From positions 1 through 45,999 of the forward strand of contig DAOUKI010000119.1 in the NCBI GenBank assembly GCA_034421495.1: DNA of 45,999 nt, read 5' to 3'. Each line of letters opens with the position of its first letter. Positions within the stretch are counted from its first letter, which is position 1. The DNA is from Dehalococcoidia bacterium (lineage in GTDB: Bacteria > Chloroflexota > Dehalococcoidia > Lucifugimonadales > QGNO01). The translations under genes and the position numbers were made by a program. Below, one piece after another: positions 3,601 through 27,475 of the stretch. The notes under the pieces were generated by a model. That model searched no databases, was not told where the DNA came from, and saw only the letters and a list, made by a program, of their open reading frames with translations.

Positions 3601-6600
3601 TTTCCCGTCATTCCTTTAGTAACAGATACACTTGGTATTCGATTGTAGATGAGTATTCCGAGGCCCGACTCAACGCTGCTGGGAAAGCAACCGGCTTGGC
3701 CAACGCCCCGTACATCTCGCTCCCGGAATGGGCACGTAGCGGCCGCATCTACGACCTAGCCATTGAGATCACCGCAGGGCATTCGACTCCTTACTCACAG
3801 GCTAAGGCAATTGAGCGATACCTGAGGACGGAATACGCTTACCGAGCCCCCGAAACGTCACGTGACGGGGCGCCACCAGCGGGGCAGGACCCGGTGGACT
3901 GGTTCCTATTTGACAAACGGGAGGGCACGTGCGGCAACTTCAGCAGCGCCTTCGTCTTCCTTGCCAGGGCCATAGGCCTACCGGCCAGAGTGGTTTCCGG
4001 CTGGGCAATAGGGATAACGCCCAGCCGGCAGACTGTCTCTTCTGACCAGGCACATCAGTGGGCCGAGGTAGCGTTCGAGGGACTGGGATGGATAGATTTC
4101 GATCCTACGCCTGGGGGGCCGCGGGCGCGCGCCGCTCTGGAGACTCTGTCCGGAGGGAACCCGGATGCGATAGAAGACGCTCTGGAAGCATTGGAGGAAG
4201 CCGGCGAAGAGGTGGTCAGACTAGAAAACGGCGGGGCAATACTGGAGAAGGGTGGCGAACGGTACTTTATCCCAGGCACCACTACCGCGCCGTCGTCTGG
4301 GATACCGGAAACCCCTCTATTTCAGATAACCGGCGCGGCCAATACCGGCTATCTTCGCACCTCGGTAGGTGATTTGTATCAGGGTGGAGGTTGGAGGCAG
4401 CTCGATCCGGTGAGCGTCGACGTAGTTCCTGACACCAGTATCTCAGGCGCCACTTGGACTCAATACAGACAACCTGACAGTGAATTTGGCCAGTTGCCTC
4501 CGCAAAGACGAAGTGATGTGTCCCTCTTTGGCTTCAGGACGGGTGGGCATGTCAGCCGGACGGACAACATCCAAATGACACCGATAGAATCAACAGGGAA
4601 CCTGCCAATTGGCCGTGCCCCAATATCACCAGACCTGCAACGGACAGAGAGACAAGGCGTCTACTATCCCTTTAGCTCAACGTTTCGTTTGCACGAAGAA
4701 GTGTCCACCTTTTCCTGGACATCCAGCATTGTGTCCTATCGGGCTCAAGATCTCGAGCAGGCCAATGTTGCGGATGACCCCACGTACCTTCAGCTTCTGC
4801 CAGACATGCCGCCACGCATCAAGGAACTGGCCGAGCAGATCACCTCCGGCTATACCTCGCCGTATGCCAAGGCCAAGGCGCTGGAAGCGTACTTAAAGAC
4901 CGAGTATACCTACAGGCTTGCCGATAGTCTCGACGATTTTCCTCCACCGGGCCGCGACCCAGTCGACTGGTTCCTGTTTGACCATCGTGAGGGCACGTGC
5001 GGCGTGTTCAGCAGCGCCTTCGTCGTGATGGCCCGCTCCGTGGGCATCCCGGCCAGGGTAGTCTCAGGCTGGGTCGTATCCCAAACGGCAGGCACACAGA
5101 CCGTCCGCGCCAACCAAGCGCACCAATGGGCGGAGGTAGCGCTTGAAGGGATTGGATGGGTCTCGTTTGAGCCCACACCACCAGGGGGCGCTCCATCGCG
5201 GGCACAGGATGGCTTGGACTCTGAGGCGGTAGCAGACGTTCTGGGGGCCTTGGATGAGGGGGATCCTGAGGCGATATCGGATGCTCTGGAGGCCCTGGTT
5301 GAAGGGGGGTCAAGTGGGGGAGGCTCAGGAGAGTTAGAAGACCCGCTGGAAGCCTTGGAGGAAGCCGGGGTGGACGTGGTTAGGCTGGAGAACGGCGGGA
5401 CTATCATCTCCGAGGATGAGAACAGCTTCTCGAATCCCGGTACGACGACAGAGCAGGCTTTCAAGCCCCCACACATTCCTGTCTACATCGTCAGCGGCGC
5501 CGACGGCACGTCTTACCTGCGCATGGCCACAGGCGACGTGTATGAGGAGGGCGGCTGGCGGCAACTGGATCCTATCCGTATTGAGGAGCGTCCCCAAGAG
5601 CGCGTGCCCGAAGCGCTGCAGAGGGAGTACACAAGCGGCGCGTTCAGCACCTTGCCCCCAGAAAGACGCAGCGACCCTGCGTTCTTCGGTATCAGAGATA
5701 GCGACACTCAAGAGAGCGAGGTCTTGATCCGCGTGCAATCAGCGAATCCGGATAGGCCCATTCCGGCCGGGGTCATACCCGTTTCGCCCGACCTGCAGGA
5801 CTTCCGGCATGACGAAGTCTACTATCCCTACAGCGGCACCCTCCGCACGCCGCACCGGAAGTCGGACTATTGGTACCTTACCAAAGTGCAGCACTTCACA
5901 CTCGGCCAACTTCGCCGGGCAGATGCCGCATCCGACCCCACGTACCTCCAACTCCCGCCGGACCTGCCGGACCGCGTCCGGCAATTGGCCGAGCATGTCA
6001 CTCAAGGCCACACCACGCCTTACGAGAAGGCGCGGGCGCTGGCAGTCTACCTCAGAACAACCTACCCATACCGCTTCGCAGACGGCCCGGAGGACAGGCC
6101 TCCCCCCGGCCACGACCCGGTCGACTGGTTCCTCTTCGACCATCAGGAGGGCACATGCGGAGTGTTCAGCAGCGCCTTCGCAGTCATGGCCCGCGCCGCC
6201 GGCATCCCCGCCCGGGTCGTCTCTGGCTGGCCAGTCATCCCCACCCCCGACCTGCAGACCGTATACACAGATCAGGCGCACCAGTGGGCGGAGATTGCGT
6301 TGGAGGGCATAGGCTGGGTGACGGTTGAGCCAACGCCATCCGACGGTGCACCGTTACGGGCCCGCAACTTTGCCGGAGGGAACGTTCCTAACCCACCTGT
6401 TATATCGGGTGGCGGCCCCAACCCTGGAACCACGGTTTTGCAACCAGTGCAAACCTACACCGCCATCACCCAATCGCCCGCTGAGGTACGAGGGGGGCAA
6501 GCGTTCATGGTCAGTGGCACAGTGAGCACCGCCGCGGGCCACGCCGTGGACGACATGCGCGTGGAGATCTTCGCCAACAAGACCCAAGAGCGTGGGGGCA

Positions 6601-9600
6601 GGCTGATTGGGATCGCTGTGACCCGCTCCGGGAGTTGGAGCACCGCAGCCCAAATGCACCTCGACATGGAGGCAGGCACATACCAACTCCTCGCCCGGGC
6701 GGCAGATAACGACGACTTTGGCCAGTCTTGGAGTGAGCCGGTCATCGAGATAAAGCTACGACAAGACACCGTGACCACGATCACTGAGTGGCCCGCCGAG
6801 GCCCGGTGGGAAGAACCGTTAACCGTGGCCGGTACAGTCAACACCATGGGTGGCCTTCCGGTAAGCGATATGTGGGTAGAGGTCTATGCTAACAAGACCC
6901 AAGAGCACGGGGGCAGGCTGATTGGGACCGCTGTGACCCGCTCCGGGCGTTGGAGCGTTGAAGTCCGAATGCCCCGTAACATGGAGACGGGCACATACCA
7001 GCTCTTCGCCCGGGCGGTAGAGGACAGCCGCTACAACGAATCTTGGAGTGAGCCGGGCATCGAGATGAAGCTAGGACAAGACACCGTGACCACGATCACC
7101 CAGTCGCCCACCGAGGTCCAGCGGGAGCAGCCGTTGACCGTGGCCGGTACGGTTAACACCGTCAGTGGGAGTCCGGTAAACGATATGAGGGTCGAGGTCT
7201 ATGTGAACGAGACCAAGGAGCACGGGGGCACGCTGATTGGGACCGCTGTGACGCATTCCGGGCAATGGAGCGCTGAAGTCCGAATGCCCGGCGACATGGA
7301 GCTAGGCGCATACCAACTCCTAGCTCGCGCTGTGGAGAACGACCACTTTTACGAGTCTTGGAGCGACCCAGACATCACAGTATACTCGGGGAGCGGCCTA
7401 GAGTTGACCGGTCCGACTACAGTTACGGTGGAAGACGACGCGGTGTTTGTCGGCCGGCTCTCGGATGACAGAGGCATGGGTTTGGAGGACCGCGAGGTAG
7501 TCGTATCTGTCGACGGGACCGTAACGGATTCGATCATGACCAGTCCCCAAGGCACCTTCACCTTCACGTTAGCCTTCTCTGAGTTGGGGCGGCACTGGGT
7601 TGATGTGGAGGTTGCCGAGATGGACTTTGTGCTGGGCAACAGCGTACGCATCGGCGTAGACGTGACGCTCCCGACTAAGATCACCCTTGAAGCCTCGGTC
7701 TCCGTGGAGATCGGCGAGGAGTTCCAAGTAACCGGCACGCTCCTGAGTGTGCGAGGAGAGGCCCTTGCGGATCGTCCTGTCGTTGTTAGTATTGGGGGGA
7801 GCCTCAAGCGACACCCCTTCACGGACGACGACGGAGCATTTGAGGTCCAGGGCAGATTGGGTACCCCAGGAGTCTACATTGTGCGCGCCGAGTTCGATAG
7901 AGACAACTGGGTGCTGGCTTCCACGGCTACTGCACGGTTGTTAGTCCGTGAGAGAGCGCTCCTGACTTTCGACGGGCCGAGCACCATTGATCTGGGAAGC
8001 GGTGGAATGTTCAGTGGCCTCCTAACCACCGCTGCGGGTGTGCCCATCCGCCAGTCGGCGCTGAGCATCGTTGATGCTAGCGACGCTGAGCTTGCCACGG
8101 TGACCACGGATGATGATGGCAGGTTTGAGTACCAGCATTCGTCCTTCCTCCAGACGGGACCGCAATCGATTACGGCCCGGTACCCAGGCGCAGACCTGGT
8201 ATTGCCAAGCTCGGCTAGGATTGCCTTCTCCGTGTTAGCTCAGACCTCTATGAATCTTGAGCTTCCAACTATTGCAAGAGACGGTGATTCGTTTATGTTG
8301 CATGGAAGCCTGAGAGACATCAACGGTGATCCGGTGCCGAATGTTGAGGTGGAGATTAAGGACGTGGGTACACGCACGCTGATGACCGATGCGGACGGCA
8401 AATTCAGTTGGGAGACCGTTGCCACGTTTGACGAAGGGGTAGCGGAGTCGGCTCACGAGTCTCACCTCTCCGTGGAGGTCTTCTTCTCTGGCACTGACCA
8501 CATGGCGCCATCTGCTGCATCTGCTGAAGTTGCTATTGGTGTTCCACGGATCCTTTTGGAGCCGTTGGAGCCTGTGGCGCGCGGAGACGCCGTTACTTTG
8601 CGAGGAACAGTGCTGCTGGGCAACCGCCCCATGACAGGCATAGATCTGGACGTGGCCGAACAAGACAGCGTACAGTCCGGCGCTGCCGGCGAATTCGCCT
8701 ACCGCTACCAGGTAGCCAGCGACCTTCCGCTTGGAACCAGCGATGTAACAGTCACCGCATCCGCTCTCGATGTAAGCGCTAGTGTGCCCCTGGAGGTCAG
8801 ATCCGCCGTAAGCATTGTTGTTACTCCAGTTGGGGAAGTCCGTCCCGGTAAAATGACGCTTCTACAGGCTGCACTACAGGACGACCGGCGGGCGCCTATC
8901 GCTGGCGCCGCTGTGCGTTCCGACGACGGCGTGGAGGTTGTAACAGATGACCTTGGCGTCGCGTTACTAGAACTTACGGTGCCTGACGATGAAGATGCTT
9001 CGGCCTTCTTTATCACTTTGACCTTTGACGGCAACGACCAGCACATGCCTCGCACATATTTTGTCGGTGTCCCACTCTCCCCGTCGGCTGGACTTAACTG
9101 GTTCTTATGGGCTGGCGCCGCAAGCGGTGTTGCCGTACTTGTTGCCGCTGTCTACACAGGAAGGAAGGTGCGCTATGTGCCGCTGCCAGCCCTCCTCCGA
9201 CGGCGTAGGGTGACCGCGTCGCCTGAGGCAGAGTCGGCCTCTGCCCTAGGTGCGGAAGACCTCACCCAAGAAGAGCCAACCGAGCCTGGCGCGCAGGTCA
9301 CTCTGGAAGTGGGTTTCAATAAGGCGGCGGATCTGCCTGACGTCTGGGGCGTGGGTGAGGACGTCACAATCACAGTGACAGTTCTTGACGTCGAAGGACA
9401 GGCCAGAGCCAGCACAGAGATCGTGGTTGCTGTGGCAGACGAAGAGCCGATGGCGCTAGTAAGTGGCGACGATGGGGCTTGCACCTTGCACTGGACCGCC
9501 TCCGAACTGGGTCAACACACGGTGTCGGCAGCGTTCGCAGGTGACGAGGATCACCCGCCTGCCTCTGAATCTCGGAACTTCCGGGTGGTAGATTTCAGGG

Positions 9601-9845
9601 CGGAGATTGTGCGCCTCTACAACAGCTTCCTAGATTGGGCCCGATCCAGCACCGGCAGCGCTCTTGACAAGGCGACGCCCAGGGAAGTGGAGGTCATGCT
9701 GGTCTCCAGTAGCCTGCCGGTGGACCAGAAGTCCCTTGATGAGCTCATCTCCCGATTTGAGGAGGCGGACTACAGTGAGCACTCAATTGCCCGCAGGCAC
9801 TATGAGGCGATGTACCGAGCCTGGCGCGCAGTGGTGGAGGAGTAG
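696..9845 (+). CDS. Giant (3,049 aa) membrane-anchored multi-domain protein: four transglutaminase-like modules, HEAT-repeat insert, tandem Ig-like beta-sandwich domains, C-terminal TM helix and DUF4129-like tail
   Basis: Single uninterrupted 9,150-nt ORF. ATG 696 is preceded by AGGA (685-688). About five N-terminal hydrophobic helices. Four copies of the transglutaminase-core signature DPVDWFLF..G(T)C(G)xFSSAF..ARxxGIPARVVSGW...(D/N)QAHQWAE...G(I/L)GW...(D/E)PT. HEAT-like repeats and beta-sandwich repeats. TM helix LNWFLWAGAASGVAVLVAAVYTG. The C-terminal ...ATPREVEVML...EEADYSEHSIARRHYEAMYRAWRAV resembles DUF4129 tails of TgpA-type transglutaminase membrane proteins. Confidence 0.9.
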   Translation: MRRLTKNLAELMSGNPSRQAGLVLMLTVALAGFFLLIEFLASLLSSGPQDILAVAPGQEATFGLPNSVGLLEAGVLVLSLAVALAVLIASVRWPLARASFRPYLSLILAILFAITLVGVGVYLAFSDMLGQGLDYSEHTVDRSILKPAGLAVLALISLTLIVAGFINRYALALLVVAWVSAAAIFGFLDIRSLHGLHLFERPDRLETPSTYTEIVKDFQRPDALPVEAGTLPVEIEVPHQQDAPTFVISVTAEQSEVPIPEPVFWVSGADHTTYLRTATGDVYEQGRWWQVDPLHLLVEDDGSIPENVVAAIEEARAEPAGSLPPERLDASLLAWSTVEPVESVWDLIAITAFYEGTAFSDGVVPNVNHLVGVNTPAAYYPFSATLRLEGPVHRYQLAMSIPHFDPDDVLGAAPSKDFLYLHLPEDLPARVLELAEQFKGDESPYVRANQINRYLREKFAFSTLEPDEESIERPTGRDPVDWFLFERPVGDSANFSSAFVILARAAGIPARVVSGWAIKRDAGHQVVTADQAHQWAEIALDGIGWVTFDPTRQDASPLRGEDQSLPSLLEELTDSEDPGIREDAAHTLGDLGEAEALPALLDAFRNDGSAAVRLAAGTAIHKIGIEDLIRILLYHEDPPVRAAAAEALGAFRVSEAVDVLLQALSSDVDARVRTASIRALEEISGEAAEIGVLQAALEDEEVSVRETAVRALGNMKAQWTAEEIVTLLREDTNAVIREAAAWTLGELKEAVALQPLIDARDDRVEAVREAAAEALRKWLIPDLAAILQEADDPVQRAAVAKVLGETGEIAAVPPLNWGLNDPVDDVRSAASDALNSMGEITILENGSGLLTAGRGRAFVSGTTTQARPQSPVTPIFAVEGAAHTRYLRTGVGDIYDNGRWLAEEQTGFPYESTSDIVSSTVEAVETHREEITVSGLDSSQLIPAGIVPTSKLLQRVGVSGTFWQPSATFSRHSFSNRYTWYSIVDEYSEARLNAAGKATGLANAPYISLPEWARSGRIYDLAIEITAGHSTPYSQAKAIERYLRTEYAYRAPETSRDGAPPAGQDPVDWFLFDKREGTCGNFSSAFVFLARAIGLPARVVSGWAIGITPSRQTVSSDQAHQWAEVAFEGLGWIDFDPTPGGPRARAALETLSGGNPDAIEDALEALEEAGEEVVRLENGGAILEKGGERYFIPGTTTAPSSGIPETPLFQITGAANTGYLRTSVGDLYQGGGWRQLDPVSVDVVPDTSISGATWTQYRQPDSEFGQLPPQRRSDVSLFGFRTGGHVSRTDNIQMTPIESTGNLPIGRAPISPDLQRTERQGVYYPFSSTFRLHEEVSTFSWTSSIVSYRAQDLEQANVADDPTYLQLLPDMPPRIKELAEQITSGYTSPYAKAKALEAYLKTEYTYRLADSLDDFPPPGRDPVDWFLFDHREGTCGVFSSAFVVMARSVGIPARVVSGWVVSQTAGTQTVRANQAHQWAEVALEGIGWVSFEPTPPGGAPSRAQDGLDSEAVADVLGALDEGDPEAISDALEALVEGGSSGGGSGELEDPLEALEEAGVDVVRLENGGTIISEDENSFSNPGTTTEQAFKPPHIPVYIVSGADGTSYLRMATGDVYEEGGWRQLDPIRIEERPQERVPEALQREYTSGAFSTLPPERRSDPAFFGIRDSDTQESEVLIRVQSANPDRPIPAGVIPVSPDLQDFRHDEVYYPYSGTLRTPHRKSDYWYLTKVQHFTLGQLRRADAASDPTYLQLPPDLPDRVRQLAEHVTQGHTTPYEKARALAVYLRTTYPYRFADGPEDRPPPGHDPVDWFLFDHQEGTCGVFSSAFAVMARAAGIPARVVSGWPVIPTPDLQTVYTDQAHQWAEIALEGIGWVTVEPTPSDGAPLRARNFAGGNVPNPPVISGGGPNPGTTVLQPVQTYTAITQSPAEVRGGQAFMVSGTVSTAAGHAVDDMRVEIFANKTQERGGRLIGIAVTRSGSWSTAAQMHLDMEAGTYQLLARAADNDDFGQSWSEPVIEIKLRQDTVTTITEWPAEARWEEPLTVAGTVNTMGGLPVSDMWVEVYANKTQEHGGRLIGTAVTRSGRWSVEVRMPRNMETGTYQLFARAVEDSRYNESWSEPGIEMKLGQDTVTTITQSPTEVQREQPLTVAGTVNTVSGSPVNDMRVEVYVNETKEHGGTLIGTAVTHSGQWSAEVRMPGDMELGAYQLLARAVENDHFYESWSDPDITVYSGSGLELTGPTTVTVEDDAVFVGRLSDDRGMGLEDREVVVSVDGTVTDSIMTSPQGTFTFTLAFSELGRHWVDVEVAEMDFVLGNSVRIGVDVTLPTKITLEASVSVEIGEEFQVTGTLLSVRGEALADRPVVVSIGGSLKRHPFTDDDGAFEVQGRLGTPGVYIVRAEFDRDNWVLASTATARLLVRERALLTFDGPSTIDLGSGGMFSGLLTTAAGVPIRQSALSIVDASDAELATVTTDDDGRFEYQHSSFLQTGPQSITARYPGADLVLPSSARIAFSVLAQTSMNLELPTIARDGDSFMLHGSLRDINGDPVPNVEVEIKDVGTRTLMTDADGKFSWETVATFDEGVAESAHESHLSVEVFFSGTDHMAPSAASAEVAIGVPRILLEPLEPVARGDAVTLRGTVLLGNRPMTGIDLDVAEQDSVQSGAAGEFAYRYQVASDLPLGTSDVTVTASALDVSASVPLEVRSAVSIVVTPVGEVRPGKMTLLQAALQDDRRAPIAGAAVRSDDGVEVVTDDLGVALLELTVPDDEDASAFFITLTFDGNDQHMPRTYFVGVPLSPSAGLNWFLWAGAASGVAVLVAAVYTGRKVRYVPLPALLRRRRVTASPEAESASALGAEDLTQEEPTEPGAQVTLEVGFNKAADLPDVWGVGEDVTITVTVLDVEGQARASTEIVVAVADEEPMALVSGDDGACTLHWTASELGQHTVSAAFAGDEDHPPASESRNFRVVDFRAEIVRLYNSFLDWARSSTGSALDKATPREVEVMLVSSSLPVDQKSLDELISRFEEADYSEHSIARRHYEAMYRAWRAVVEE
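750..1262 (+). other. N-terminal cluster of about five predicted transmembrane helices of the giant protein
   Basis: Hydrophobic runs AGLVLMLTVALAGFFLLIEFLASLL, VGLLEAGVLVLSLAVALAVLIASV, YLSLILAILFAITLVGVGVYLAF, GLAVLALISLTLIVAGFI and YALALLVVAWVSAAAIFGFL. Judged by eye, with no topology program. Confidence 0.6.
2127..2348 (+). other. Transglutaminase-like core 1 (nucleophile position is Ser, not Cys)
   Basis: DPVDWFLFERPVGDSANFSSAFVILARAAGIPARVVSGWAI...DQAHQWAEIALDGIGWVTFDPT. It aligns residue-for-residue with cores 2-4, but GTCG is replaced by GDSA. The His and Asp positions are retained. Confidence 0.75.
2421..3212 (+). other. HEAT (PBS-lyase-type) repeat solenoid, about 8-9 repeats, inserted between transglutaminase modules 1 and 2
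   Basis: A roughly 30-aa periodic pattern D/E-x-x-VR-x-x-A-x-x-ALG-x-(L/I)G. Examples: EDPGIREDAAHTLGDLGEAEALPALLDAF, DGSAAVRLAAGTAIHKIG, EDPPVRAAAAEALGAFRVSEAVDVLLQAL, DVDARVRTASIRALEEI, EEVSVRETAVRALGNM, TNAVIREAAAWTLGELK, DDPVQRAAVAKVLGETGEIAAVPPL, PVDDVRSAASDALNSMG. Confidence 0.7.
3888..4109 (+). other. Transglutaminase-like core 2 (canonical Cys-His-Asp positions all present)
   Basis: DPVDWFLFDKREGTCGNFSSAFVFLARAIGLPARVVSGWAI...DQAHQWAEVAFEGLGWIDFDPT. Confidence 0.8.
4956..5177 (+). other. Transglutaminase-like core 3 (Cys-His-Glu)
   Basis: DPVDWFLFDHREGTCGVFSSAFVVMARSVGIPARVVSGWVV...NQAHQWAEVALEGIGWVSFEPT. The Asp position of the DPT motif is Glu. Confidence 0.8.
6114..6335 (+). other. 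Transglutaminase-like core 4 (Cys-His-Glu)
   Basis: DPVDWFLFDHQEGTCGVFSSAFAVMARAAGIPARVVSGWPV...DQAHQWAEIALEGIGWVTVEPT. The Asp position is Glu. Confidence 0.8.
6450..7391 (+). repeat. Three in-frame tandem repeats (312 + 315 + 315 nt; 104/105 aa each) encoding Ig-like/beta-sandwich domains
   Basis: Units start at 6450, 6762 and 7077. The 23-nt string caagacaccgtgaccacgatcac is identical at 6762 and 7077. gctgattgggaccgctgtgac is shared by units 2 and 3, and ggcaggctgattggga(t/c)cgctgtgacccgctccggg by units 1 and 2. Protein units follow the pattern Q(D/T)T(V/Y)T(T/A)IT..P.E....(Q/E)..(M/T)V.GTV.T..G..V.DM.VE(I/V)(F/Y).N(K/E)T(Q/K)E(R/H)GG.LIG.AVT.SG.WS......P..ME.G.YQL.ARA......ESWS.P. Confidence 0.85.
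7392..9065 (+). other. Array of about six further, more diverged Ig-like/beta-sandwich domains (about 90 aa each)
   Basis: A recurring pattern: beta-strand-rich about 90-aa unit with G(T/S)L...G.P(V/L)....V.V......(T/F)TD..G.F. Examples: FQVTGTLLSVRGEALADRPVVVSIGG..FTDDDGAFEV; MFSGLLTTAAGVPIRQSALSIVD..VTTDDDGRFEY; FMLHGSLRDINGDPVPNVEVEIKD..LMTDADGKFSW. Domain boundaries are approximate. Confidence 0.55.
9093..9161 (+). other. Single C-proximal transmembrane helix of the giant protein
   Basis: LNWFLWAGAASGVAVLVAAVYTG followed by the basic RKVRYVPLPALLRRRR, which gives positive-inside polarity. This places the roughly 2,600-aa TGase/HEAT/Ig region and the C-terminal about 225 aa on opposite sides of the membrane. 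Confidence 0.6.
9591..9842 (+). other. DUF4129-like C-terminal domain
   Basis: DFRAEIVRLYNSFLDWAR...ATPREVEVMLVSSSLPVDQKSLDELISRFEEADYSEHSIARRHYEAMYRAWRAV. The T-P-x-E ... A-x-Y-S ... pattern is what I remember for DUF4129 tails. An HMM search is needed. Confidence 0.5.
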
Positions 9846-23411: not shown

Positions 23412-23460
23412 TTTAGCTGAATGAGTGGAACCAGCGAGCGGTCAAAGGTGCCGCGCGGTT

Positions 23461-24285
23461 CTACAGAACCTGGATGTCGAGGCGACAGTGATCGCTGGGG
23501 CCCCACTCGTCGGGTGTGTTGAGAGCGTGGATCTGCACCCTTTCCGCAAGGCCGCGAGATGCAAATACGAAGTCCAGTTGGCGGGTGGCCGATGCGGGCG
23601 ACTGCTGGGTGGAGTGGTAGGTGGGAACGTTCAGACTGTCCTTGGGAAGCTCCTCGGGCCAAGGGTCGGCCTGCCGACCGTGTGGTGCCTGTGGCCCGCA
23701 AAACTCCAGTCCCAAGGCCTCCATTCTGGTGAACACCGACCGGTAACGCTCTGCCCAGTACGGGCTGCCGTACTCACCATAGCCATGAAGGATGTTCAGG
23801 TCTCCGGCGGCAATGATGCGGTGGGCGCTTTGATAGCCTATAAGCTCGGACAAGTCAGAGACGATGCGGTGGGCGGAGCCGTCGGACATAATCCAGCTGC
23901 CGCCTACCATTTCGTGGGGATACCTCCACTGGGAGTACATGGAGAGCAGGATGATGGGGTCGGCGTCCGGTGAGGTTACCTTGGCGGCCACCAATGATCC
24001 TGGCAGGCTGACGGCGAACTCGCTGGGAGTGGCATCAGGCAGAGGCCTTGAGTGTATCCATTGAACGCCAACCTGGTTGGAGAACTTAGCAATTGCCGCC
24101 CGCCATCGCTGGGGCGTGGCATAACCGCCGGTTATCTCCCAGGGCGCCGGGTCAACCTCAACCCTCCCGGCCACGTCGGGAGGCGGCTCCGCGGCCTCTT
24201 GCAGTAGGGCCAGATCCACATCCATGTCAGCAAGAACGCGCCACGGCTTGTCTCTCCTGGCGATGTTCCAAGATATGATTCGCAT
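23461..24285 (-). CDS. Endonuclease/exonuclease/phosphatase (EEP) family protein
   Basis: EEP catalytic landmarks appear in order: MRIISWNI (Asn), DLALLQE (Glu), AAGDLN (Asp/Asn), GPSDHC (Asp-His). 274 aa. Confidence 0.8.
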   Translation of the reverse strand: MRIISWNIARRDKPWRVLADMDVDLALLQEAAEPPPDVAGRVEVDPAPWEITGGYATPQRWRAAIAKFSNQVGVQWIHSRPLPDATPSEFAVSLPGSLVAAKVTSPDADPIILLSMYSQWRYPHEMVGGSWIMSDGSAHRIVSDLSELIGYQSAHRIIAAGDLNILHGYGEYGSPYWAERYRSVFTRMEALGLEFCGPQAPHGRQADPWPEELPKDSLNVPTYHSTQQSPASATRQLDFVFASRGLAERVQIHALNTPDEWGPSDHCRLDIQVL

Positions 24286-24365
24286 TGAATCCTCCCACGA
24301 AGGCGTCTACTATAGCAGGCCTGGGCAGTACAGCACGGGCAGCGCTACTGCTAGGCTACTGCACG

Positions 24366-25067
24366 TTATCCACGAGTATCTGGACAGTTGGGTAGGGCCC
24401 CATTGGCGGTTAAGGGAGGCCAGAATTCCTTGATGTCCTTCCAAGTGAGCACGTTGTTCTCACTCATCCAGCACTGCTGAAGAAGGAATTTCACCTGACC
24501 AAAGTTCATCGTGTGATCCCTATCATCCGCAACTACAAACTGGACTACTTTCTTTTTGTTTCCAAGAATGTTGAGTAGAACCTTAGTCGTCACGTACTGA
24601 CGAATGAGTTGATGCACTAATACGTCACTTGTGTCAGAATTATCAAACCCTGTCTCATGCTTAGCTTCCCCAATGAAGAGGTGATTTGGAGTTTCCAGAA
24701 CGATGTCTATTTCAGTATTGCCCAGGTTGTTTCTCAAGTTAACCTCTTGGTTTGCCTGGGATGGGTTGTAGTTGAAAGACTGCGAGGTTTGCAAGTGTGA
24801 GAAACTAAGAATGTTATTACTCAAGTGAGGAAAAAGACAGTCGTACCGTTCTGCAAGATCCTTTTCGTCTCCTATACCATCAGAAGCAAAGTGATCCCGT
24901 ATCCCATACCAGAACAGGTTAATGCAAACTTCACTCGCTTGAGTCTCATCGGGCTCACCGAGTCTCCTAGCCAGTCTCAAACGAGCGTCCTTGCACCTGA
25001 AGAATGGCGCAAAATAGTACGCCGTCTTCCAGTTCTCAGTTCTGTTTTCTATACCCAGAATCTTCAT
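24366..25067 (-). CDS. Hypothetical protein with a PD-(D/E)xK-like nuclease motif, encoded on a markedly AT-rich segment
   Basis: ATG 25067 is preceded by a strong SD, AAGGAGGG (25073-25080 on the minus strand), embedded in the last codons of the upstream gene. ...NTEIDIVLETPNHLFIGEAKHETGF... has the D-x(12)-E-x-K spacing of restriction-endonuclease-fold enzymes. No wider family recognised. Confidence 0.55.
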   Translation of the reverse strand: MKILGIENRTENWKTAYYFAPFFRCKDARLRLARRLGEPDETQASEVCINLFWYGIRDHFASDGIGDEKDLAERYDCLFPHLSNNILSFSHLQTSQSFNYNPSQANQEVNLRNNLGNTEIDIVLETPNHLFIGEAKHETGFDNSDTSDVLVHQLIRQYVTTKVLLNILGNKKKVVQFVVADDRDHTMNFGQVKFLLQQCWMSENNVLTWKDIKEFWPPLTANGALPNCPDTRG

Positions 25068-26400
25068 TACAACCCTCCTTCAGTGTTACTTGCGCTACCG
25101 CCACCAGCGCCTCGTACACCCGGACCATGGCCAGTGTGTCGCGTTCGCAGTATGCCAGCAGCGACTCCCTGATGGCGGCCCTCTCCGACTCCGGCGCCTC
25201 GCCGGTAACCAGGCGGCCTTCGTACTGCGGGAACGCCTGCGCCAGTTCCCTGAGGACCCTTGCCTCGTAGCCTGAGTACACCACTATCGAGCCTTTGGGG
25301 GGCGTTGCCTCAAGCAGAGCGACTATCAGACGCTCCCTAGGGTCGCCGAGGCCGTCGTCCAGAAAGGCGCTGTGCCTCAGCCCGCCGTCCGAGTCCCGCA
25401 CATGCAGCGACCACTGGAACGGAATCATCTGATAGGGACTTGTGCCCGCGTATATGGGAATGGCAAGGCCCAATGTCTCAAAGTCCAGGAAGGCAGCCGG
25501 GAAGTCTATCTCTGCCAGCCCCGACGCCAAGTTGGTACCTACGAATGGCTGACCCATAGTCACGCTGTCTCGGACCCGACGCTGCATATAGGAAAGACCG
25601 CTGAAGTCCGGCGGTATGCTGCCGATGTCACGGATACCCGAGGCCTTCAAGCGGTCATGTATCTTGTTCCTCAGCCCTGGCAGCTTCCTGATAGGGTGCT
25701 CCGGCTCACCCGTATGGCAGTGTCCAAAGAAGGGACACCGGTAGGGGGTCGTGCAGTGAGGGCCGGTCTCGATGTCCAGGGTGTCGGCAAGCTGTAGCGA
25801 TTCCCACATCCGCGACAGGGCCCCGGGCACCTGTTCCGCTATGTATGCCCTGGACTCTTCCGTAACGTCCTCTAGGGAGAAGAGCCGTTCCAGGTCATAG
25901 GCCCCGCCCTGGTACACGTATCCGGTGTTGATGTGCATGAGATACGCCCTTCCGACGGGGACGCCACAGCCCTCTACCGCGTACATCTGAATTGCAACGT
26001 CAGGGATGTGCTGTTCCTTGGCGCTGGCGGTGGACTTTACCTCGATTAGGTCGAACTCCTGGCCGTTGCCCCTGACCAGGACGTCGACCCGCGTCCTGAT
26101 GCTCTGGAAGGCAAAGGCTGGTTCGTAGAGGACAAGGACGGAGACGTCAGACAGTAGAACCTGCGTTGATTGCACTGCTTGGGGGTGCTCATGGTACTGC
26201 TCCTGAACCAGTACACCGTTGGGGAATCGCTGTCTTGCCAGCTCACCGACGTTGGTTCCGGTATCAAAGACAGCTTGCTGGCCCGCTTCCACGGGGTCGG
26301 CAATGTCGCGGTGATAGCATTCCAGATAGAGTCGTTTCAGGCACTGAAGCCCGGCTATAAACCTGGATTTGGACAGTTGAGGCAGCGTTTCGTGGGTCAT
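25036..26400 (-). CDS. DUF2779-family protein: N-terminal Cas4/RecB-like PD-(D/E)xK nuclease with Cys cluster, fused to a C-terminal DEDD(y)-type exonuclease-like domain
   Basis: LSKSRFIAGLQCLKRLYLE is the typical DUF2779 N-terminus and carries the first Cys. RVDVL...FDLIEVKS is the D...ExK motif. HCTTPYRCPFFGHC supplies three more Cys. The C-terminal FLDFET (D-x-E) and YCERDTLAM (Y-x3-D) are DnaQ-like motifs. I start at ATG 26400 (MTHETLPQLSKSRF) rather than the track's 26574, because the upstream 58 codons look non-coding. Confidence 0.72.
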   Translation of the reverse strand: MTHETLPQLSKSRFIAGLQCLKRLYLECYHRDIADPVEAGQQAVFDTGTNVGELARQRFPNGVLVQEQYHEHPQAVQSTQVLLSDVSVLVLYEPAFAFQSIRTRVDVLVRGNGQEFDLIEVKSTASAKEQHIPDVAIQMYAVEGCGVPVGRAYLMHINTGYVYQGGAYDLERLFSLEDVTEESRAYIAEQVPGALSRMWESLQLADTLDIETGPHCTTPYRCPFFGHCHTGEPEHPIRKLPGLRNKIHDRLKASGIRDIGSIPPDFSGLSYMQRRVRDSVTMGQPFVGTNLASGLAEIDFPAAFLDFETLGLAIPIYAGTSPYQMIPFQWSLHVRDSDGGLRHSAFLDDGLGDPRERLIVALLEATPPKGSIVVYSGYEARVLRELAQAFPQYEGRLVTGEAPESERAAIRESLLAYCERDTLAMVRVYEALVAVAQVTLKEGCNEDSGYRKQN

Positions 26401-26491
26401 TGGCGTCAACTCTACTTGGAGAATAAGCATGATTTCAACGCCGTTACACCTTCTGCTAAACTGATGGGGCATCCTGATCTGAATTGGTGAT

Positions 26492-27475
26492 ATGACGGAG
26501 CAATCGACAGACGTCAAAGCGATTCTTGGGCAGATACTGAGGACACCCGCAAATACGGCGGCTTTTTCCTTCATCCGCTACGTGGGCACGCACATGAGTG
26601 AGGACGACCAGGCGGAGTTTCTCAACGGGCTGCTGAAAAAGTCCGTCGAGAGCAGGGAAGCGGGAGACGCCTCGGCGCTGTGGGACTACCTGGAGGTATG
26701 GGAAGAACGGGGCAGGGCGCTGGCCGGAGCGCGGGCTCGCGGCGTCGAGGTAGAAGGAATACCGTGGTCGCCGGTTGCGACGCCGTTGAACGAGGCCAAG
26801 TTCGCCTTGATCACCACGGGCGGCGTTTACGTGGAAGGCCAGGAACCGTACGAGACGGACGGACCGGAAGGCCTGGGTGATTGGTCGTGGCGGGCGATTC
26901 CAAAGGATGTTCCACGCGATGATCTGCGCCTGGCCCACCTGCACTACGACCTCTCCGGGCCTCGTGAGGACATCAACTGCGTCTTCCCGCTGGACAGGAT
27001 GGTGGAGTTGGAGCAGGACGGCGTCATAGGAAGTCTTGCCAGCACCAACTACTCGTTTATGGGGTACATACAACGTCCCGACCTGTTGAGCGCTGAGACC
27101 GCTCCCCAAGTAGCGAAACGGCTGAAAGCCGACGGCGTTCAGGCCGTAGTGCTCACCTCAACCTGACCGGTGTGCAACCGGTCCGGCGGACTGATAGCAA
27201 GGGCAATAGAAGCGGAGGGCATCCCCACGGTGCTCGTCATGATGTACAAGGAGATGGCGGAGAAGGTCCATCCCCCACGCGTTGCCCACGTCCGCTTCCC
27301 GTTTGGGCGGCCCATGGGTGAGCCGAACAACGCGGACCAGCATCGCGTGATACTGGAAGACGCGCTGAGCGTCCTGGAAACGGCGGGAGAACCGGGGACG
27401 GTTGTCAGCCTGCCATATCGCTGGAGACGTGAGCACTACAAGCGGATACGGGCGGAGCGGGCCGTCAACAAGTAG
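26492..27475 (+). CDS. GrdB/PrdB-family (glycine/sarcosine/betaine reductase selenoprotein B-like) protein, candidate selenoprotein (in-frame TGA 27164-27166 in a U-P-V-C motif)
   Basis: Track ORFs 26492..27166 and 27170..27475 share one frame, with only the TGA plus CCG between them. The joined sequence ...ADGVQAVVLTST-U-PVCNRSGGLIARAIEAEGIPTVLV... resembles the GrdB active-site region as I remember it (..LTsT-U-GTC-tRCGA..I.E..GIP.V). Upstream, FALITTGGVY..., HLHYD..., DINCVFPLDRMVELEQDGVIGSL also look GrdB-like. Confidence 0.7.
27179..27193 (+). promoter_or_regulatory. Candidate SECIS-like hairpin (CGGUCC-GGC-GGACUG)
   Basis: A 6-bp stem including one G-U pair, with a GGC apex about 18-20 nt after the UGA. 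A competing hairpin, GACCGG-UGUGCAA-CCGGUC (27165-27183), includes the GA of the UGA itself. Both were read by eye. Weaker than the DUF3179 case. Confidence 0.3.

What the first reader, a model, noticed from the sequence alone, without database searches (positions are those of the whole stretch)
23461..26400. Same-strand trio of predicted nucleases (DUF2779 Cas4-like plus DEDD exonuclease, small PD-(D/E)xK protein, EEP nuclease): candidate defence or DNA-processing module
Seen in sequence, three consecutive minus-strand genes:
- A DUF2779 protein with D...ExK (FDLIEVKS), a four-Cys pattern (C...C-x5-C-x5-C) and DnaQ-like D-x-E / Y-x3-D motifs.
- A 233-aa protein with D-x12-E-A-K. Its SD and start lie inside the last codons of the DUF2779 gene (32-nt overlap).
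- After an 80-nt gap, an EEP-family protein with all catalytic landmarks.

The trio is wedged between unrelated genes (an ABC binding protein on one side, a GrdB-like gene on the other) and includes a compositionally foreign gene.

Established: each fold is a nucleic-acid or phosphoester hydrolase fold. Clustering of several nuclease genes in variable, compositionally atypical loci is typical of anti-phage or anti-plasmid islands.

Inference: this is an uncharacterised multi-nuclease system. I know of no described system with this composition, and DUF2779 itself is uncharacterised.
Basis: partly seen in the sequence, partly recalled or inferred. Interest (0 to 1): 0.68.

Follow-up and report, generated by a model that had tools for sequence, protein, structure and literature searches.

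The report
Nuclease gene pair, not a trio
The three neighbouring nuclease-type genes are real, but only the first two (a DUF2779 double nuclease and a small unannotated nuclease-like gene that is swapped between strains unusually often) form a recurring pair. The third gene is an independent neighbour, and the pair's function is untested.

Summary
The three minus-strand ORFs, their motifs, the 32-nt overlap and the 80-nt gap are all present as described.

The trio is not a unit:
- An EEP gene follows the 233-aa gene ("B") only here and in one close relative (L005), out of 84 B loci. It follows none of 80 DUF2779 loci.
- In relative L084 the EEP gene stands alone with the same upstream sequence. 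In L169 and L170 a PIN-PhdYeFM pair takes its place.

DUF2779 plus B is a real cassette:
- DUF2779 lies next to B in 40 of 80 species-level genome loci, in several unrelated contexts and in all three relative orientations.
- The pair is one clean 2105-bp insertion/deletion relative to L084.

B belongs to an unannotated family of about 220 aa with a confident PD-(D/E)xK-like model:
- It has 12 points lower GC than its flanks in 83 of 83 loci.
- At fixed sites its alleles are 43-60% identical while neighbouring genes are 93-99% identical, and synonymous sites are saturated. This indicates allele replacement under purifying selection.

In this window, DUF2779 has lost 60 core residues of its exonuclease domain.

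Best reading: an accessory, conflict-type (defence-like) two-nuclease cassette that is partly decayed here, sitting in a small variable hotspot. The function is inferred, not shown.

The parts
25036..26400 (-). DUF2779 gene (454 aa): a Cas4-like PD-(D/E)xK/Fe-S domain plus a DEDDy exonuclease domain. This is the first gene of the cassette.
   Evidence: Pfam PF11074 at 96.8 bits, but only profile positions 2-97 of 126 are matched. There are weak PADLOC Cas4 hits. The start matches homologues. All close relatives are about 498 aa.
25705..26400 (-). Cas4-like N-terminal half (about aa 1-232), carrying D117/E120/K122 and the four cysteines C20, C216, C222 and C228. It appears intact.
   Evidence: These are invariant columns in the alignment with full-length homologues. 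The same half alone, followed by B, persists in L008, L010, L012 and L049.
25210..25220 (-). Junction of an in-frame 180-nt (60-codon) deletion inside the exonuclease domain.
   Evidence: L005 carries 180 extra nt at this point. The lost segment is the nearly invariant stretch LLaLceRvVDLL..YYHP.FHGSFSIKSVLPaLvP..Y.dL..G.AA.aY. The HMM match splits into positions 1-398 and 456-497.
24366..25067 (-). Gene B (233 aa): a member of an unannotated family of about 220 aa with a PD-(D/E)xK-like core. It is low in GC and its alleles are swapped between strains. This is the second gene of the cassette.
   Evidence: At least 800 homologues, none with a precomputed Pfam domain. Only 390 clusters at 50% identity among 1.84 billion representatives. 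Invariant residues include E119, D121, K136, H152, Q153 and R156. AF2 pLDDT is 91.5. GC is 45.2%.
25036..25067 (-). 32-nt overlap of the DUF2779 3' end with the start of B; the Shine-Dalgarno sequence AAGGAGG lies just upstream of it, at about 25075-25081. This overlap is specific to this lineage: homologues end 6-13 aa after 'YEAL', whereas this protein runs on for 22 aa.
   Evidence: Sequence and the C-terminal alignment. In other loci the spacing ranges from a 4-nt overlap to about 80 nt.
24320..26424 (-). The DUF2779+B cassette as a single insertion/deletion unit (2105 bp).
   Evidence: Syntenic relative L084 has 81 unrelated nt in place of this block, with flanks 88-90% identical on both sides.
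23461..24285 (-). EEP-fold gene (274 aa). It is an independent neighbour, not part of the cassette.
   Evidence: Pfam Exo_endo_phos at 24.1 bits against a cut-off of 24.5. Foldseek matches TRAS1 endonuclease and ExoIII/APE1 at E 6e-10 to 1e-8, TM about 0.55. It has 3871 homologues, mostly 60-68% identical. It is a solo gene in L084, L085 and L086.
24286..24319 (-). Conserved upstream region of the EEP gene (CTGCTATAGTAGACGCC...GGGAGGA), with a -10-like TATAGT and a Shine-Dalgarno sequence.
   Evidence: It is conserved in L005, L003 and L084, including L084 where no DUF2779 or B lies upstream. Promoter function is inferred, not shown.

Best explanation
**Shown**
- The locus holds two separate things inside a small variable hotspot between a GrdB-like gene and an ABC solute-binding gene.
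- The first is a two-gene cassette, DUF2779 followed by B. It recurs in many Dehalococcoidia genomes and is gained or lost as one block.
- The second is an unrelated, separately conserved EEP (AP-endonuclease/retrotransposon-endonuclease-like) gene, probably separately transcribed. In relatives it alternates with a PIN-PhdYeFM toxin-antitoxin pair.
- B is a functional, purifying-selected protein with a PD-(D/E)xK-type catalytic constellation.
- B alleles at a fixed chromosomal site are replaced by recombination from a deeply diverged pool.

**Inferred**
- B is a Mg2+-dependent endonuclease that makes the first cut on a non-self or otherwise marked DNA. It would be comparable to a solitary, methyltransferase-less (type IV-like) restriction nuclease.
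- DUF2779 then processes or degrades the ends, using its Fe-S Cas4-like 5'-3' activity and its DEDDy 3'-5' exonuclease.
- The allele turnover, the low GC and the frequent decay reflect genetic conflict with mobile elements.
- In this window the cassette is partly decayed. The DEDDy domain has lost 60 core residues, so at most the Cas4-like half and B still work.
For: **The pairing is real**
- A DUF2779 HMM hit lies next to B in 40 of 80 species-level genome loci.
  - 37 are upstream on the same strand.
  - L038 and L066 are divergent and L072 (a gammaproteobacterium) is convergent.
  - At least five unrelated flanking contexts are involved.
- In the reverse direction, B or a B remnant lies directly downstream in 11 of 55 metagenomic DUF2779 loci that have room for it.
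- The cassette is one indel: 2105 bp here against 81 nt in L084.

**EEP is independent**.

**B fold and motifs**.

**Allele swapping**
- L016 vs L071: neighbouring genes are 98-99% identical at the protein level, B 45%.
- L002 vs L081: neighbours 97-99%, DUF2779 81%, B 46%.
- Four B alleles, 43-60% identical, occupy this same site in genomes with about 90% nucleotide identity.
- B has dS of 1.2 or saturated, against 0.09-0.3 for neighbours, and dN/dS of 0.15-0.33.
- The window's B is a mosaic: its 5' part resembles L005 and its 3' part resembles L003.

**Composition**
- B has lower GC than its flanks in 83 of 83 loci, by 11.7 points on average.

**Independent decay of either gene**.

**No methyltransferase partner**
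- No cognate DNA methyltransferase recurs next to B.

**Toxin-antitoxin genes in the same hotspot**.
Against: - No experiment exists for any of the three proteins.
- B has no significant match to any known nuclease. Foldseek against PDB gives no hit at E <= 1e-3 and TM scores of only 0.2-0.3. Pfam hits are sub-threshold. PADLOC finds none.
- B's immediate neighbours are mostly metabolic genes, and only a few are defence-like: Uma2/PDC-S03 in 6 loci and one type IIG enzyme.
- Half of the B genes have no DUF2779 nearby. Some solo copies are inherited stably, for example between a GMC oxidoreductase and a P450 in seven Tepidiformaceae species. B therefore does not need DUF2779 in cis.
- DUF2779 is quasi-essential in a minimal Mycoplasma (PMC13621843), which fits a housekeeping role.
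- All comparison sequences are MAGs or metagenome contigs, so some frameshifts may be assembly errors.
Confidence: 0.5

Rival explanations
1. B is a selfish, free-standing homing-endonuclease-like gene. It sits next to its target, the conserved 3' end of DUF2779, and spreads by cutting B-less alleles. DUF2779 is only its landing pad.
For: - B is present in some and absent in other DUF2779 loci of similar sequence.
- B's position at the DUF2779 stop codon is fixed.
- B remnants are consistent with a cycle of invasion followed by decay.
- DUF2779 next to B has raised dS (0.69 against 0.09-0.18 for neighbours in L002 vs L081), as expected for co-conversion tracts.
- B is low in GC everywhere.
Against: - DUF2779 and B are gained or lost together as one block.
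- Half of the B copies lie far from any DUF2779, in stable metabolic contexts.
- The adjacency also occurs in divergent and convergent orientation.
- Alleles at one site are deeply diverged rather than near-identical recent invaders.
- Third codon positions at B's 5' end are close to saturated, with no sign of a conserved DNA target.
- B is usually single-copy per genome.
- B is absent from 2.9 million viral contigs.
Confidence: 0.17
2. DUF2779-B is an ordinary, dispensable DNA repair or recombination pair (an endonuclease plus an end-processing exonuclease) with no role in conflict. B's divergence reflects weak constraint.
For: - DUF2779 is quasi-essential in JCVI-syn3.0 and is predicted to be a dual exonuclease (PMC13621843).
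- The pair sits in the same housekeeping context (ETF, S21, YqeY, purQ, purL) in five species.
- dN/dS is below 1.
- Few defence genes lie nearby.
Against: - B's synonymous divergence is saturated while neighbours have dS of 0.1-0.3. This indicates allele replacement, not weak constraint acting in place.
- Gene content varies among relatives with about 90% nucleotide identity, and either gene decays repeatedly.
- B has a systematic GC deficit.
- The family is small and patchy, spread across Chloroflexota, Proteobacteria and Binatia.
Confidence: 0.15
3. One reading: DUF2779, B and EEP act together as one three-nuclease defence or DNA-processing system.
For: - The three genes are on the same strand and adjacent. 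The arrangement recurs in L005, where the EEP protein is 93% identical.
- All three have nuclease-type folds.
Against: - EEP follows B in only 2 of 84 B loci and in 0 of 80 DUF2779 loci.
- EEP stands alone at the same site with the same upstream sequence in L084.
- A PIN-PhdYeFM pair replaces it in L169 and L170.
- EEP homologues are solo genes in unrelated contexts.
- EEP has native GC and evolves conservatively, unlike B.
Confidence: 0.04
4. B is not a nuclease. It is a catalytically silent PD-(D/E)xK-fold DNA-binding or regulatory protein, for example a specificity or inhibitor subunit for DUF2779.
For: - No significant sequence or structure match to any characterised nuclease.
- B is tightly coupled to the 3' end of DUF2779.
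Against: - The acidic-acidic-lysine constellation (E119, D121, E134, K136) is invariant or nearly invariant across the family. That is hard to explain without catalysis.
- B persists intact where DUF2779 is deleted or truncated.
Confidence: 0.1

Closest known systems
DUF2779 / PF11074 proteins (e.g. MMSYN1_0389 of JCVI-syn3.0; NCBIfam 'UU173 family')
   Same: Both have an N-terminal Cas4-like PD-(D/E)xK domain (D...ExK) and a C-terminal DEDDy 3'-5' exonuclease domain (DxE ... Yx3D). This architecture is described computationally in PMC3985635 and PMC13621843.
   Different: - This copy keeps all four Fe-S cysteines, whereas MMSYN1_0389 has only two.
- It has lost 60 core residues of the exonuclease domain.
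- It is followed by a partner gene (B) that the papers found here do not mention for the family.
Solo-Cas4 / Cas4-family accessory nucleases (e.g. Methanosarcina mazei Solo-Cas4; ACE1 with cyanobacterial Argonautes, PMC12094033)
   Same: Both are Cas4-like Fe-S nucleases encoded outside CRISPR-cas loci. Such nucleases can cooperate with another nuclease in processing foreign DNA.
   Different: - No cas genes, Argonaute gene or CRISPR array lies in the window.
- The Cas4 HMM matches are weak, E 9e-6 at best.
- The partner here is a small PD-(D/E)xK-like protein.
Solitary restriction-endonuclease-like nucleases (type IV enzymes such as Mrr and McrC, NERD, Pfam DUF6997)
   Same: B has a PD-(D/E)xK core, has no cognate methyltransferase, and is an accessory gene with patchy distribution. 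Its best, though weak, structural and HMM neighbours are of this kind.
   Different: - No hit reaches significance or a curated cut-off.
- B has its own invariant N-terminal motif (ILGIxNRTENWKT).
- Dependence on DNA modification is pure conjecture.
Shedu (SduA) and similar single-gene PD-(D/E)xK defence nucleases
   Same: Both have a conserved nuclease core combined with highly variable parts, and both turn over frequently.
   Different: - There is no PADLOC match at E <= 0.1.
- B is about half the size of SduA.
- B is often paired with DUF2779.
Free-standing homing endonuclease genes (e.g. phage seg/mob genes; PD-(D/E)xK homing enzymes such as I-Ssp6803I)
   Same: Both are small nuclease genes inserted right beside a conserved host gene. 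Both show sporadic presence, decay remnants and raised divergence of the adjacent host gene.
   Different: - B is not in an intron or intein.
- It moves together with its supposed target gene.
- Half of the copies are not next to DUF2779.
- Alleles at one site are deeply diverged.
ExoIII/APE1 AP endonucleases and non-LTR retrotransposon endonucleases (TRAS1, L1, R1Bm) - comparison for the EEP gene only
   Same: The EEP model has the same fold and the full set of catalytic residues. Foldseek gives E 6e-10 to 1e-8 and TM of about 0.55-0.58.
   Different: - Identity is only 13-18%.
- No sequence-level PDB match is significant (best profile E = 0.046).
- The NCBIfam xth score is far below its cut-off.
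- The model has a 35-residue low-confidence insertion at 200-234.
- The substrate is unknown.

Membership tests
DUF2779 (PF11074) | Pfam model matched above the gathering score | tested here: met
   96.8 bits against a cut-off of 23.3.
DUF2779 (PF11074) | Complete DEDDy exonuclease domain (full Pfam profile, about 498-aa protein) | tested here: not met
   Only profile positions 2-97 of 126 are matched. 60 nearly invariant residues are deleted. All close relatives are about 498 aa. The DxE and Yx3D motifs themselves are retained.
DUF2779 (PF11074) | N-terminal Cas4-like D...ExK motif plus a cysteine cluster | tested here: met
   D117, E120, K122 and C20, C216, C222, C228 are invariant among homologues.
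Cas4 (CRISPR adaptation nuclease) | Significant match to Cas4 models and location in a cas operon | tested here: not met
   Only weak PADLOC Cas4 hits (E 9e-6 to 0.02). No CRISPR array and no cas genes among the neighbours examined.
PD-(D/E)xK nuclease superfamily (gene B) | Catalytic (E/D)...D...(D/E)xK constellation on an alpha-beta-beta-beta-alpha-beta core | tested here: met
   E119, D121 and K136 are invariant in 118 sequences, and E134 is invariant in 33 and at least 90% conserved in 118. The AF2 model (pLDDT 91.5) places them on strands 119-125 and 129-135, between helices 108-116 and 153-168.
PD-(D/E)xK nuclease superfamily (gene B) | Significant similarity to a characterised member | tested here: inconclusive
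   - The top Foldseek hits are all restriction-endonuclease-like (Nt.BspD6I, McrC, R2 endonuclease, Can2), but E >= 9e-3 and TM is 0.2-0.3.
- The best BFVD hit has E 2.4e-4.
- Pfam DUF6997 and NERD hits are below their cut-offs.
- There is no sequence hit in the PDB.
Known anti-phage defence systems (PADLOC-DB v2.0.0) | HMM match of the component proteins | tested here: not met
   No match for B or EEP at E <= 0.1. Systems described after 2023 are not covered by this library.
Defence island resident | Enrichment of known defence genes next to the gene across genomes | tested here: inconclusive
   Among 66 downstream and 37 non-DUF2779 upstream neighbours of B, only Uma2/PDC-S03 (6 loci), a few methyltransferase-like hits and one type IIG enzyme appear. 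Toxin-antitoxin genes occur in the hotspot itself. Only immediate neighbours were scanned.
Toxin-antitoxin pair (DUF2779 with B) | Neither partner is stably kept without the other | tested here: not met
   B is intact where DUF2779 is deleted, truncated or absent, in about 45 loci. DUF2779 is intact without B in about 44 of 55 loci.
Homing endonuclease gene | Insertion at a defined conserved target, with presence/absence polymorphism of the nuclease gene alone | tested here: inconclusive
   Polymorphism and remnants are seen. However, the whole cassette is the indel unit in the one clean comparison available, and half of the copies are not next to DUF2779.
EEP superfamily (PF03372), nuclease branch | EEP fold with the catalytic N, E, D, N, D, D, H residues | tested here: met
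   The residues are invariant. Foldseek gives E 6e-10 to 1e-8 against TRAS1 endonuclease, ExoA, ExoIII and APE1. The Pfam score of this copy is 24.1, marginally below the cut-off of 24.5, but many homologues carry PF03372.
Exodeoxyribonuclease III (xth, TIGR00633) | Equivalog model above its cut-off | tested here: not met
   12.4 bits against a cut-off of 99.

The most novel reading that the evidence does not exclude
- The B family is a previously undescribed effector or specificity nuclease.
- Together with the solo-Cas4/DEDDy protein DUF2779 it forms a new two-gene anti-mobile-element system in marine Dehalococcoidia. Some host MAGs have names that suggest sponge symbionts, but this was not checked.
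- Its many deeply diverged alleles are kept by balancing selection and exchanged by recombination at fixed chromosomal sites. Each allele would recognise a different DNA mark or sequence.
- This would give the widespread, uncharacterised DUF2779 family its first functional context.
Probability: 0.3. Interest if true: 0.65.

Novelty: new variant of a known kind. Interest (0 to 1): 0.45.

Why it matters
DUF2779 is a widespread, uncharacterised double nuclease that is quasi-essential in the minimal cell JCVI-syn3.0. The papers found here mention no partner gene or biological role for it.

A recurring partner would give a concrete experimental handle. B fits that description:
- It belongs to an unannotated family.
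- Its alleles are replaced at fixed sites from a deeply diverged pool.
- It is still under purifying selection.

The handle is to express the pair, mutate the catalytic residues and compare alleles.

The allele-swapping pattern also marks B as a likely conflict gene in uncultured marine Chloroflexota, where defence systems have hardly been explored.

For the scan itself, the lesson is cautionary. Three adjacent nuclease folds looked like one system but turned out to be a cassette plus an unrelated neighbour in a variable hotspot.

Tried and rejected
- **Trio as a unit.** Rejected by neighbourhood counts in both directions and by syntenic relatives.
- **Low GC of B as evidence of recent foreign origin here.** Rejected as stated. 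The deficit is family-wide (83 of 83 loci) and tracks host GC.
- **B as a divergent copy of the DUF2779 Cas4-like domain.** hhalign probability is 0.1.
- **Classical R-M system.** No DNA methyltransferase recurs next to B.
- **Toxin-antitoxin relation between the two genes.** Rejected, because each is found intact without the other.
- **Phage-borne gene.** There are no B relatives in IMG/VR and only one DUF2779 relative. PHROGs gives no match.
- **Conserved DNA target or recombination anchor at B's 5' end.** Third codon positions are nearly saturated.
- **Flanking repeats, CRISPR arrays or structured RNAs at the locus.** Only short, chance-level repeats and no Rfam hit.
- **Promoter and terminator scan.** One promoter-like site upstream of DUF2779 (26438-26409), which is no more than chance gives, and no terminator.
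- **Distant relatives or domain fusions of B.** The profile search found only single-domain proteins of about 220-240 aa.
- **Sequence matches to solved structures.** None is significant for any of the three proteins; the best is E = 0.046 for the EEP profile.
- **Co-evolution of DUF2779 and B.** The correlation is only modest (Pearson r = 0.44).

Full report
**1. Observation**

- DUF2779 at 25036-26400. Its ATG at 26400 matches the N-termini of homologues.
- A 233-aa ORF, here called B, at 24366-25067. Its ATG and an AAGGAGG Shine-Dalgarno sequence lie inside the last DUF2779 codons, giving a 32-nt overlap.
- After an 80-nt gap, a 274-aa EEP ORF at 23461-24285.

Pfam scores:
- DUF2779: 96.8 bits.
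- EEP: 24.1 bits, just under its cut-off of 24.5.
- B: only sub-threshold DUF6997 and NERD hits.

PADLOC gives weak Cas4 hits for DUF2779 and nothing for B or EEP. The flanking genes are SBP_bac_5 and a GrdB-like gene.

Only B is compositionally unusual: 45.2% GC against 59% for the window, the lowest 700-nt stretch in the window. DUF2779 and EEP are native in composition.

**2. The trio is not a unit**

B has at least 800 homologues of about 220 aa, and none of those listed has a precomputed Pfam domain. I collected 84 B loci: the window, three contigs found by look-up, and 80 species-level genome loci, mostly Dehalococcoidia, SAR202 and Tepidiformaceae MAGs with a few Proteobacteria and Binatia.

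- An EEP homologue follows B only in the window and in the close relative L005. L018 has a 42%-identical copy 2 kb away.
- Among 80 metagenomic DUF2779 loci, none has the EEP gene.
- The EEP family is large (3871 hits) and conservative (60-68% identity). It occurs as a solo gene in unrelated contexts.

Syntenic relatives settle the matter. Between the same GRDB and SBP_bac_5 genes, these gene contents occur:

| Genome | Content |
|---|---|
| L169, L170 | intact DUF2779 (498 aa) + B + PIN-PhdYeFM |
| L003 | a remnant of about 20 DUF2779 codons fused to B + PhdYeFM |
| window | DUF2779 with a 60-aa deletion + B + EEP |
| L005 | split DUF2779 + B + EEP |
| L084 | EEP only |

Relative to L084, DUF2779+B is one clean 2105-bp indel (window 24320-26424, against 81 nt in L084). 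The EEP gene and its upstream TATAGT/GGGAGGA region are conserved on their own.

**3. DUF2779-B is a real pair**

- A DUF2779 HMM finds the gene next to B in 40 of the 80 genome loci. Of these, 37 are upstream on the same strand. L038 and L066 are divergent and L072 is convergent.
- The pair sits in at least five unrelated flanking contexts.
- In the reverse direction, B or a B remnant lies directly downstream in 11 of 55 DUF2779 loci that have room for it.
- Other neighbours of B are diverse, mostly metabolic genes. None recurs apart from lineage-specific synteny.

Either gene can decay while the other stays intact:
- DUF2779 reduced to its Cas4-like half: L008, L010, L012, L049.
- DUF2779 reduced to C-terminal remnants: L018, L023, L074, L003.
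- DUF2779 split: L005, L057, L016, L055.
- B reduced to its first 50 or so codons: L099, L101, L110.

This pattern excludes a toxin-antitoxin relation between the two genes.

**4. State of the cassette in this window**

The DUF2779 gene has an in-frame 180-nt deletion at about 25215/25216. It removes 60 nearly invariant residues between the ExoII-like and ExoIII (Yx3D) motifs.
- All close relatives in the database are about 498 aa, so the deletion is private to this genome.
- By inference from the DnaQ fold, this should cripple the 3'-5' exonuclease domain.
- The Cas4-like half is intact.
- B keeps every invariant residue of its family.

**5. What B is**

The AF2 model is confident (pLDDT 91.5, pTM 0.89). 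It shows an alpha-beta-beta-beta-alpha-beta core carrying E119/D121 and E134-x-K136, followed by an invariant HQxxR helix.

Foldseek finds no significant PDB match. The best hits are nevertheless uniformly restriction-endonuclease-like: Nt.BspD6I, VC1899, McrC, R2 endonuclease and Can2. BFVD gives the same picture.

An exhaustive profile search finds only 390 clusters at 50% identity among 1.84 billion representatives. All those listed are single-domain proteins, mostly of about 220-240 aa. B is absent from IMG/VR and from PHROGs. It is not related to the DUF2779 Cas4-like domain.

**6. The unusual evolutionary behaviour of B**

- **GC content.** B has lower GC than its flanks in 83 of 83 loci, by 11.7 points on average. 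Its GC tracks host GC, so this is a trait of the family and not a local event.
- **Divergence at fixed sites.** In every syntenic group B is far more diverged than its neighbours.
  - L016 vs L071: neighbours 98-99% identical at the protein level, B 45%.
  - L002 vs L081: neighbours 97-99%, DUF2779 81%, B 46%.
  - L032 vs L043: neighbours 97-98%, B 63%.
  - At the window's own site, four alleles are 43-60% identical in genomes with about 90% nucleotide identity.
- **Substitution rates.** B's synonymous divergence is saturated or above 1.2, while neighbours have dS of 0.09-0.3. B's dN/dS is 0.15-0.33.
- **Interpretation.** The divergence is therefore not fast protein evolution in place. It is replacement of alleles from a deeply diverged pool, with the protein kept functional.
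- **Mosaicism.** The window's B resembles L005 in its 5' part and L003 in its 3' part.
- **Spill-over into DUF2779.** DUF2779 next to B also has raised dS.
- **Where the variation lies.** It is concentrated in loops 61-70, 101-110 and 181-190. The catalytic blocks and the N-terminal ILGIxNRTENWKT motif are conserved.

**7. Interpretation**

Several features point to a gene involved in genetic conflict:
- allele turnover at fixed sites under purifying selection;
- a systematic GC deficit;
- patchy distribution across phyla;
- repeated gain, loss and decay;
- residence in a hotspot that also holds toxin-antitoxin genes.

B has no partner methyltransferase. My preferred mechanism, which is inferred and not shown, has three elements:
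- B acts as a solitary, type IV-like or otherwise target-marked endonuclease.
- DUF2779 processes the resulting ends.
- The two are linked functionally but not obligatorily.

Three rivals remain, and all lack experimental data:
- A homing-endonuclease-like selfish gene. This is supported by the fixed position at the DUF2779 3' end, the remnants and the co-conversion-like divergence. It is weakened by the cassette-level indel, the many solo copies and the deeply diverged alleles.
- A dispensable repair pair.
- A non-catalytic B.

**8. Comparison with what is known**

The two-domain architecture of DUF2779 is already in the literature (PMC3985635; PMC13621843, which also reports that it is quasi-essential in JCVI-syn3.0). 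The papers found here mention no partner gene or function.

B matches no Pfam, NCBIfam, PADLOC or PHROGs family above threshold.

The EEP gene belongs structurally to the nuclease branch of its superfamily (ExoIII/APE1 and retrotransposon endonucleases). It is not an xth equivalog.

**9. Verdict**

- The three-nuclease-system interpretation is not supported.
- A narrower lead remains: the DUF2779-B cassette with its allele-swapped partner gene, which is partly decayed in this genome.

**Caveats**
- All comparison sequences are MAGs or metagenome contigs.
- Only immediate neighbours were scanned for defence genes.
- I could not test whether genomes with a solo B carry DUF2779 elsewhere.

Noticed in passing
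window 26492-27475 (+), in-frame TGA at 27164-27166: The GrdB-like gene is split by an in-frame TGA (...VLTST-TGA-PVCNRSGG..., a U-x-x-C pattern), with a 7-bp hairpin immediately downstream. Gene callers split it the same way (224 aa plus 80-84 aa) in L003, L084, L169 and L170. It is probably a selenocysteine codon in a protein of about 326 aa, not two genes. The fold is not better than that of shuffled sequence (z = -0.66).
   Followed up: partly
window 23412-24365 and the same site in L003, L084, L169, L170: The slot between B and the SBP_bac_5 gene alternates between the EEP gene (window, L005, L084), a PIN-PhdYeFM toxin-antitoxin pair (L169, L170) and PhdYeFM alone (L003). It is a small hotspot of accessory genes in genomes with about 90% nucleotide identity.
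   Followed up: partly
window 23461-24285 (-) and P0121-P0240: The EEP protein belongs to a large family (3871 hits) that is unusually well conserved (60-68% identity over the full length). The family occurs in Dehalococcoidia and at least one Gammaproteobacteria MAG (P0148), as a solo gene in unrelated contexts (next to ileS/panD, or next to ruvB). Its model has a low-confidence insertion at residues 200-234. The substrate is unknown.
   Followed up: partly
window 696-9845 (+): A 3049-aa ORF has four transglutaminase-core domains, HEAT repeats and bacterial Ig-like domains. It contains a 315-nt tandem repeat (2.5 copies, 6576-7363). It is followed by an 811-aa ORF with no Pfam match.
   Followed up: no
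L094 49-215 and 2648-2731; L097 4863-4959 and 7949-8107: A repeated intergenic element of about 100-160 nt (75-89% identical copies) flanks DUF2779 and B in related marine metagenome contigs. In L097, which has no B, a copy lies directly after DUF2779. In L094 a copy lies directly after B.
   Followed up: no
L080 6723-6818 and 8001-8585; L061 1387-2043 and 8001-8624: In L080, B is interrupted. Its first 34 or so codons follow DUF2779, and the rest lies 1.2 kb further on, after an opposite-strand 215-aa ORF. In L061, two B paralogues lie 6 kb apart in opposite orientation.
   Followed up: no
L037, L040, L053, L071, L080 (DUF2779 genes): A subgroup of DUF2779 proteins lacks HMM positions 233-281. 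This is the linker after the cysteine cluster (sequence about EHPIR.LP...ERLKA.GI.DI..IP), and it looks like a helix-hairpin-helix element. The proteins are otherwise complete.
   Followed up: no
L015-L083 record titles: Many B-carrying genomes are MAGs whose names suggest sponge or aquatic-symbiosis projects (COS, IRC and APA bins; SAR202 bins; UUID-named assemblies). They span several phyla, which would fit exchange within one habitat. The habitat was not verified.
   Followed up: no
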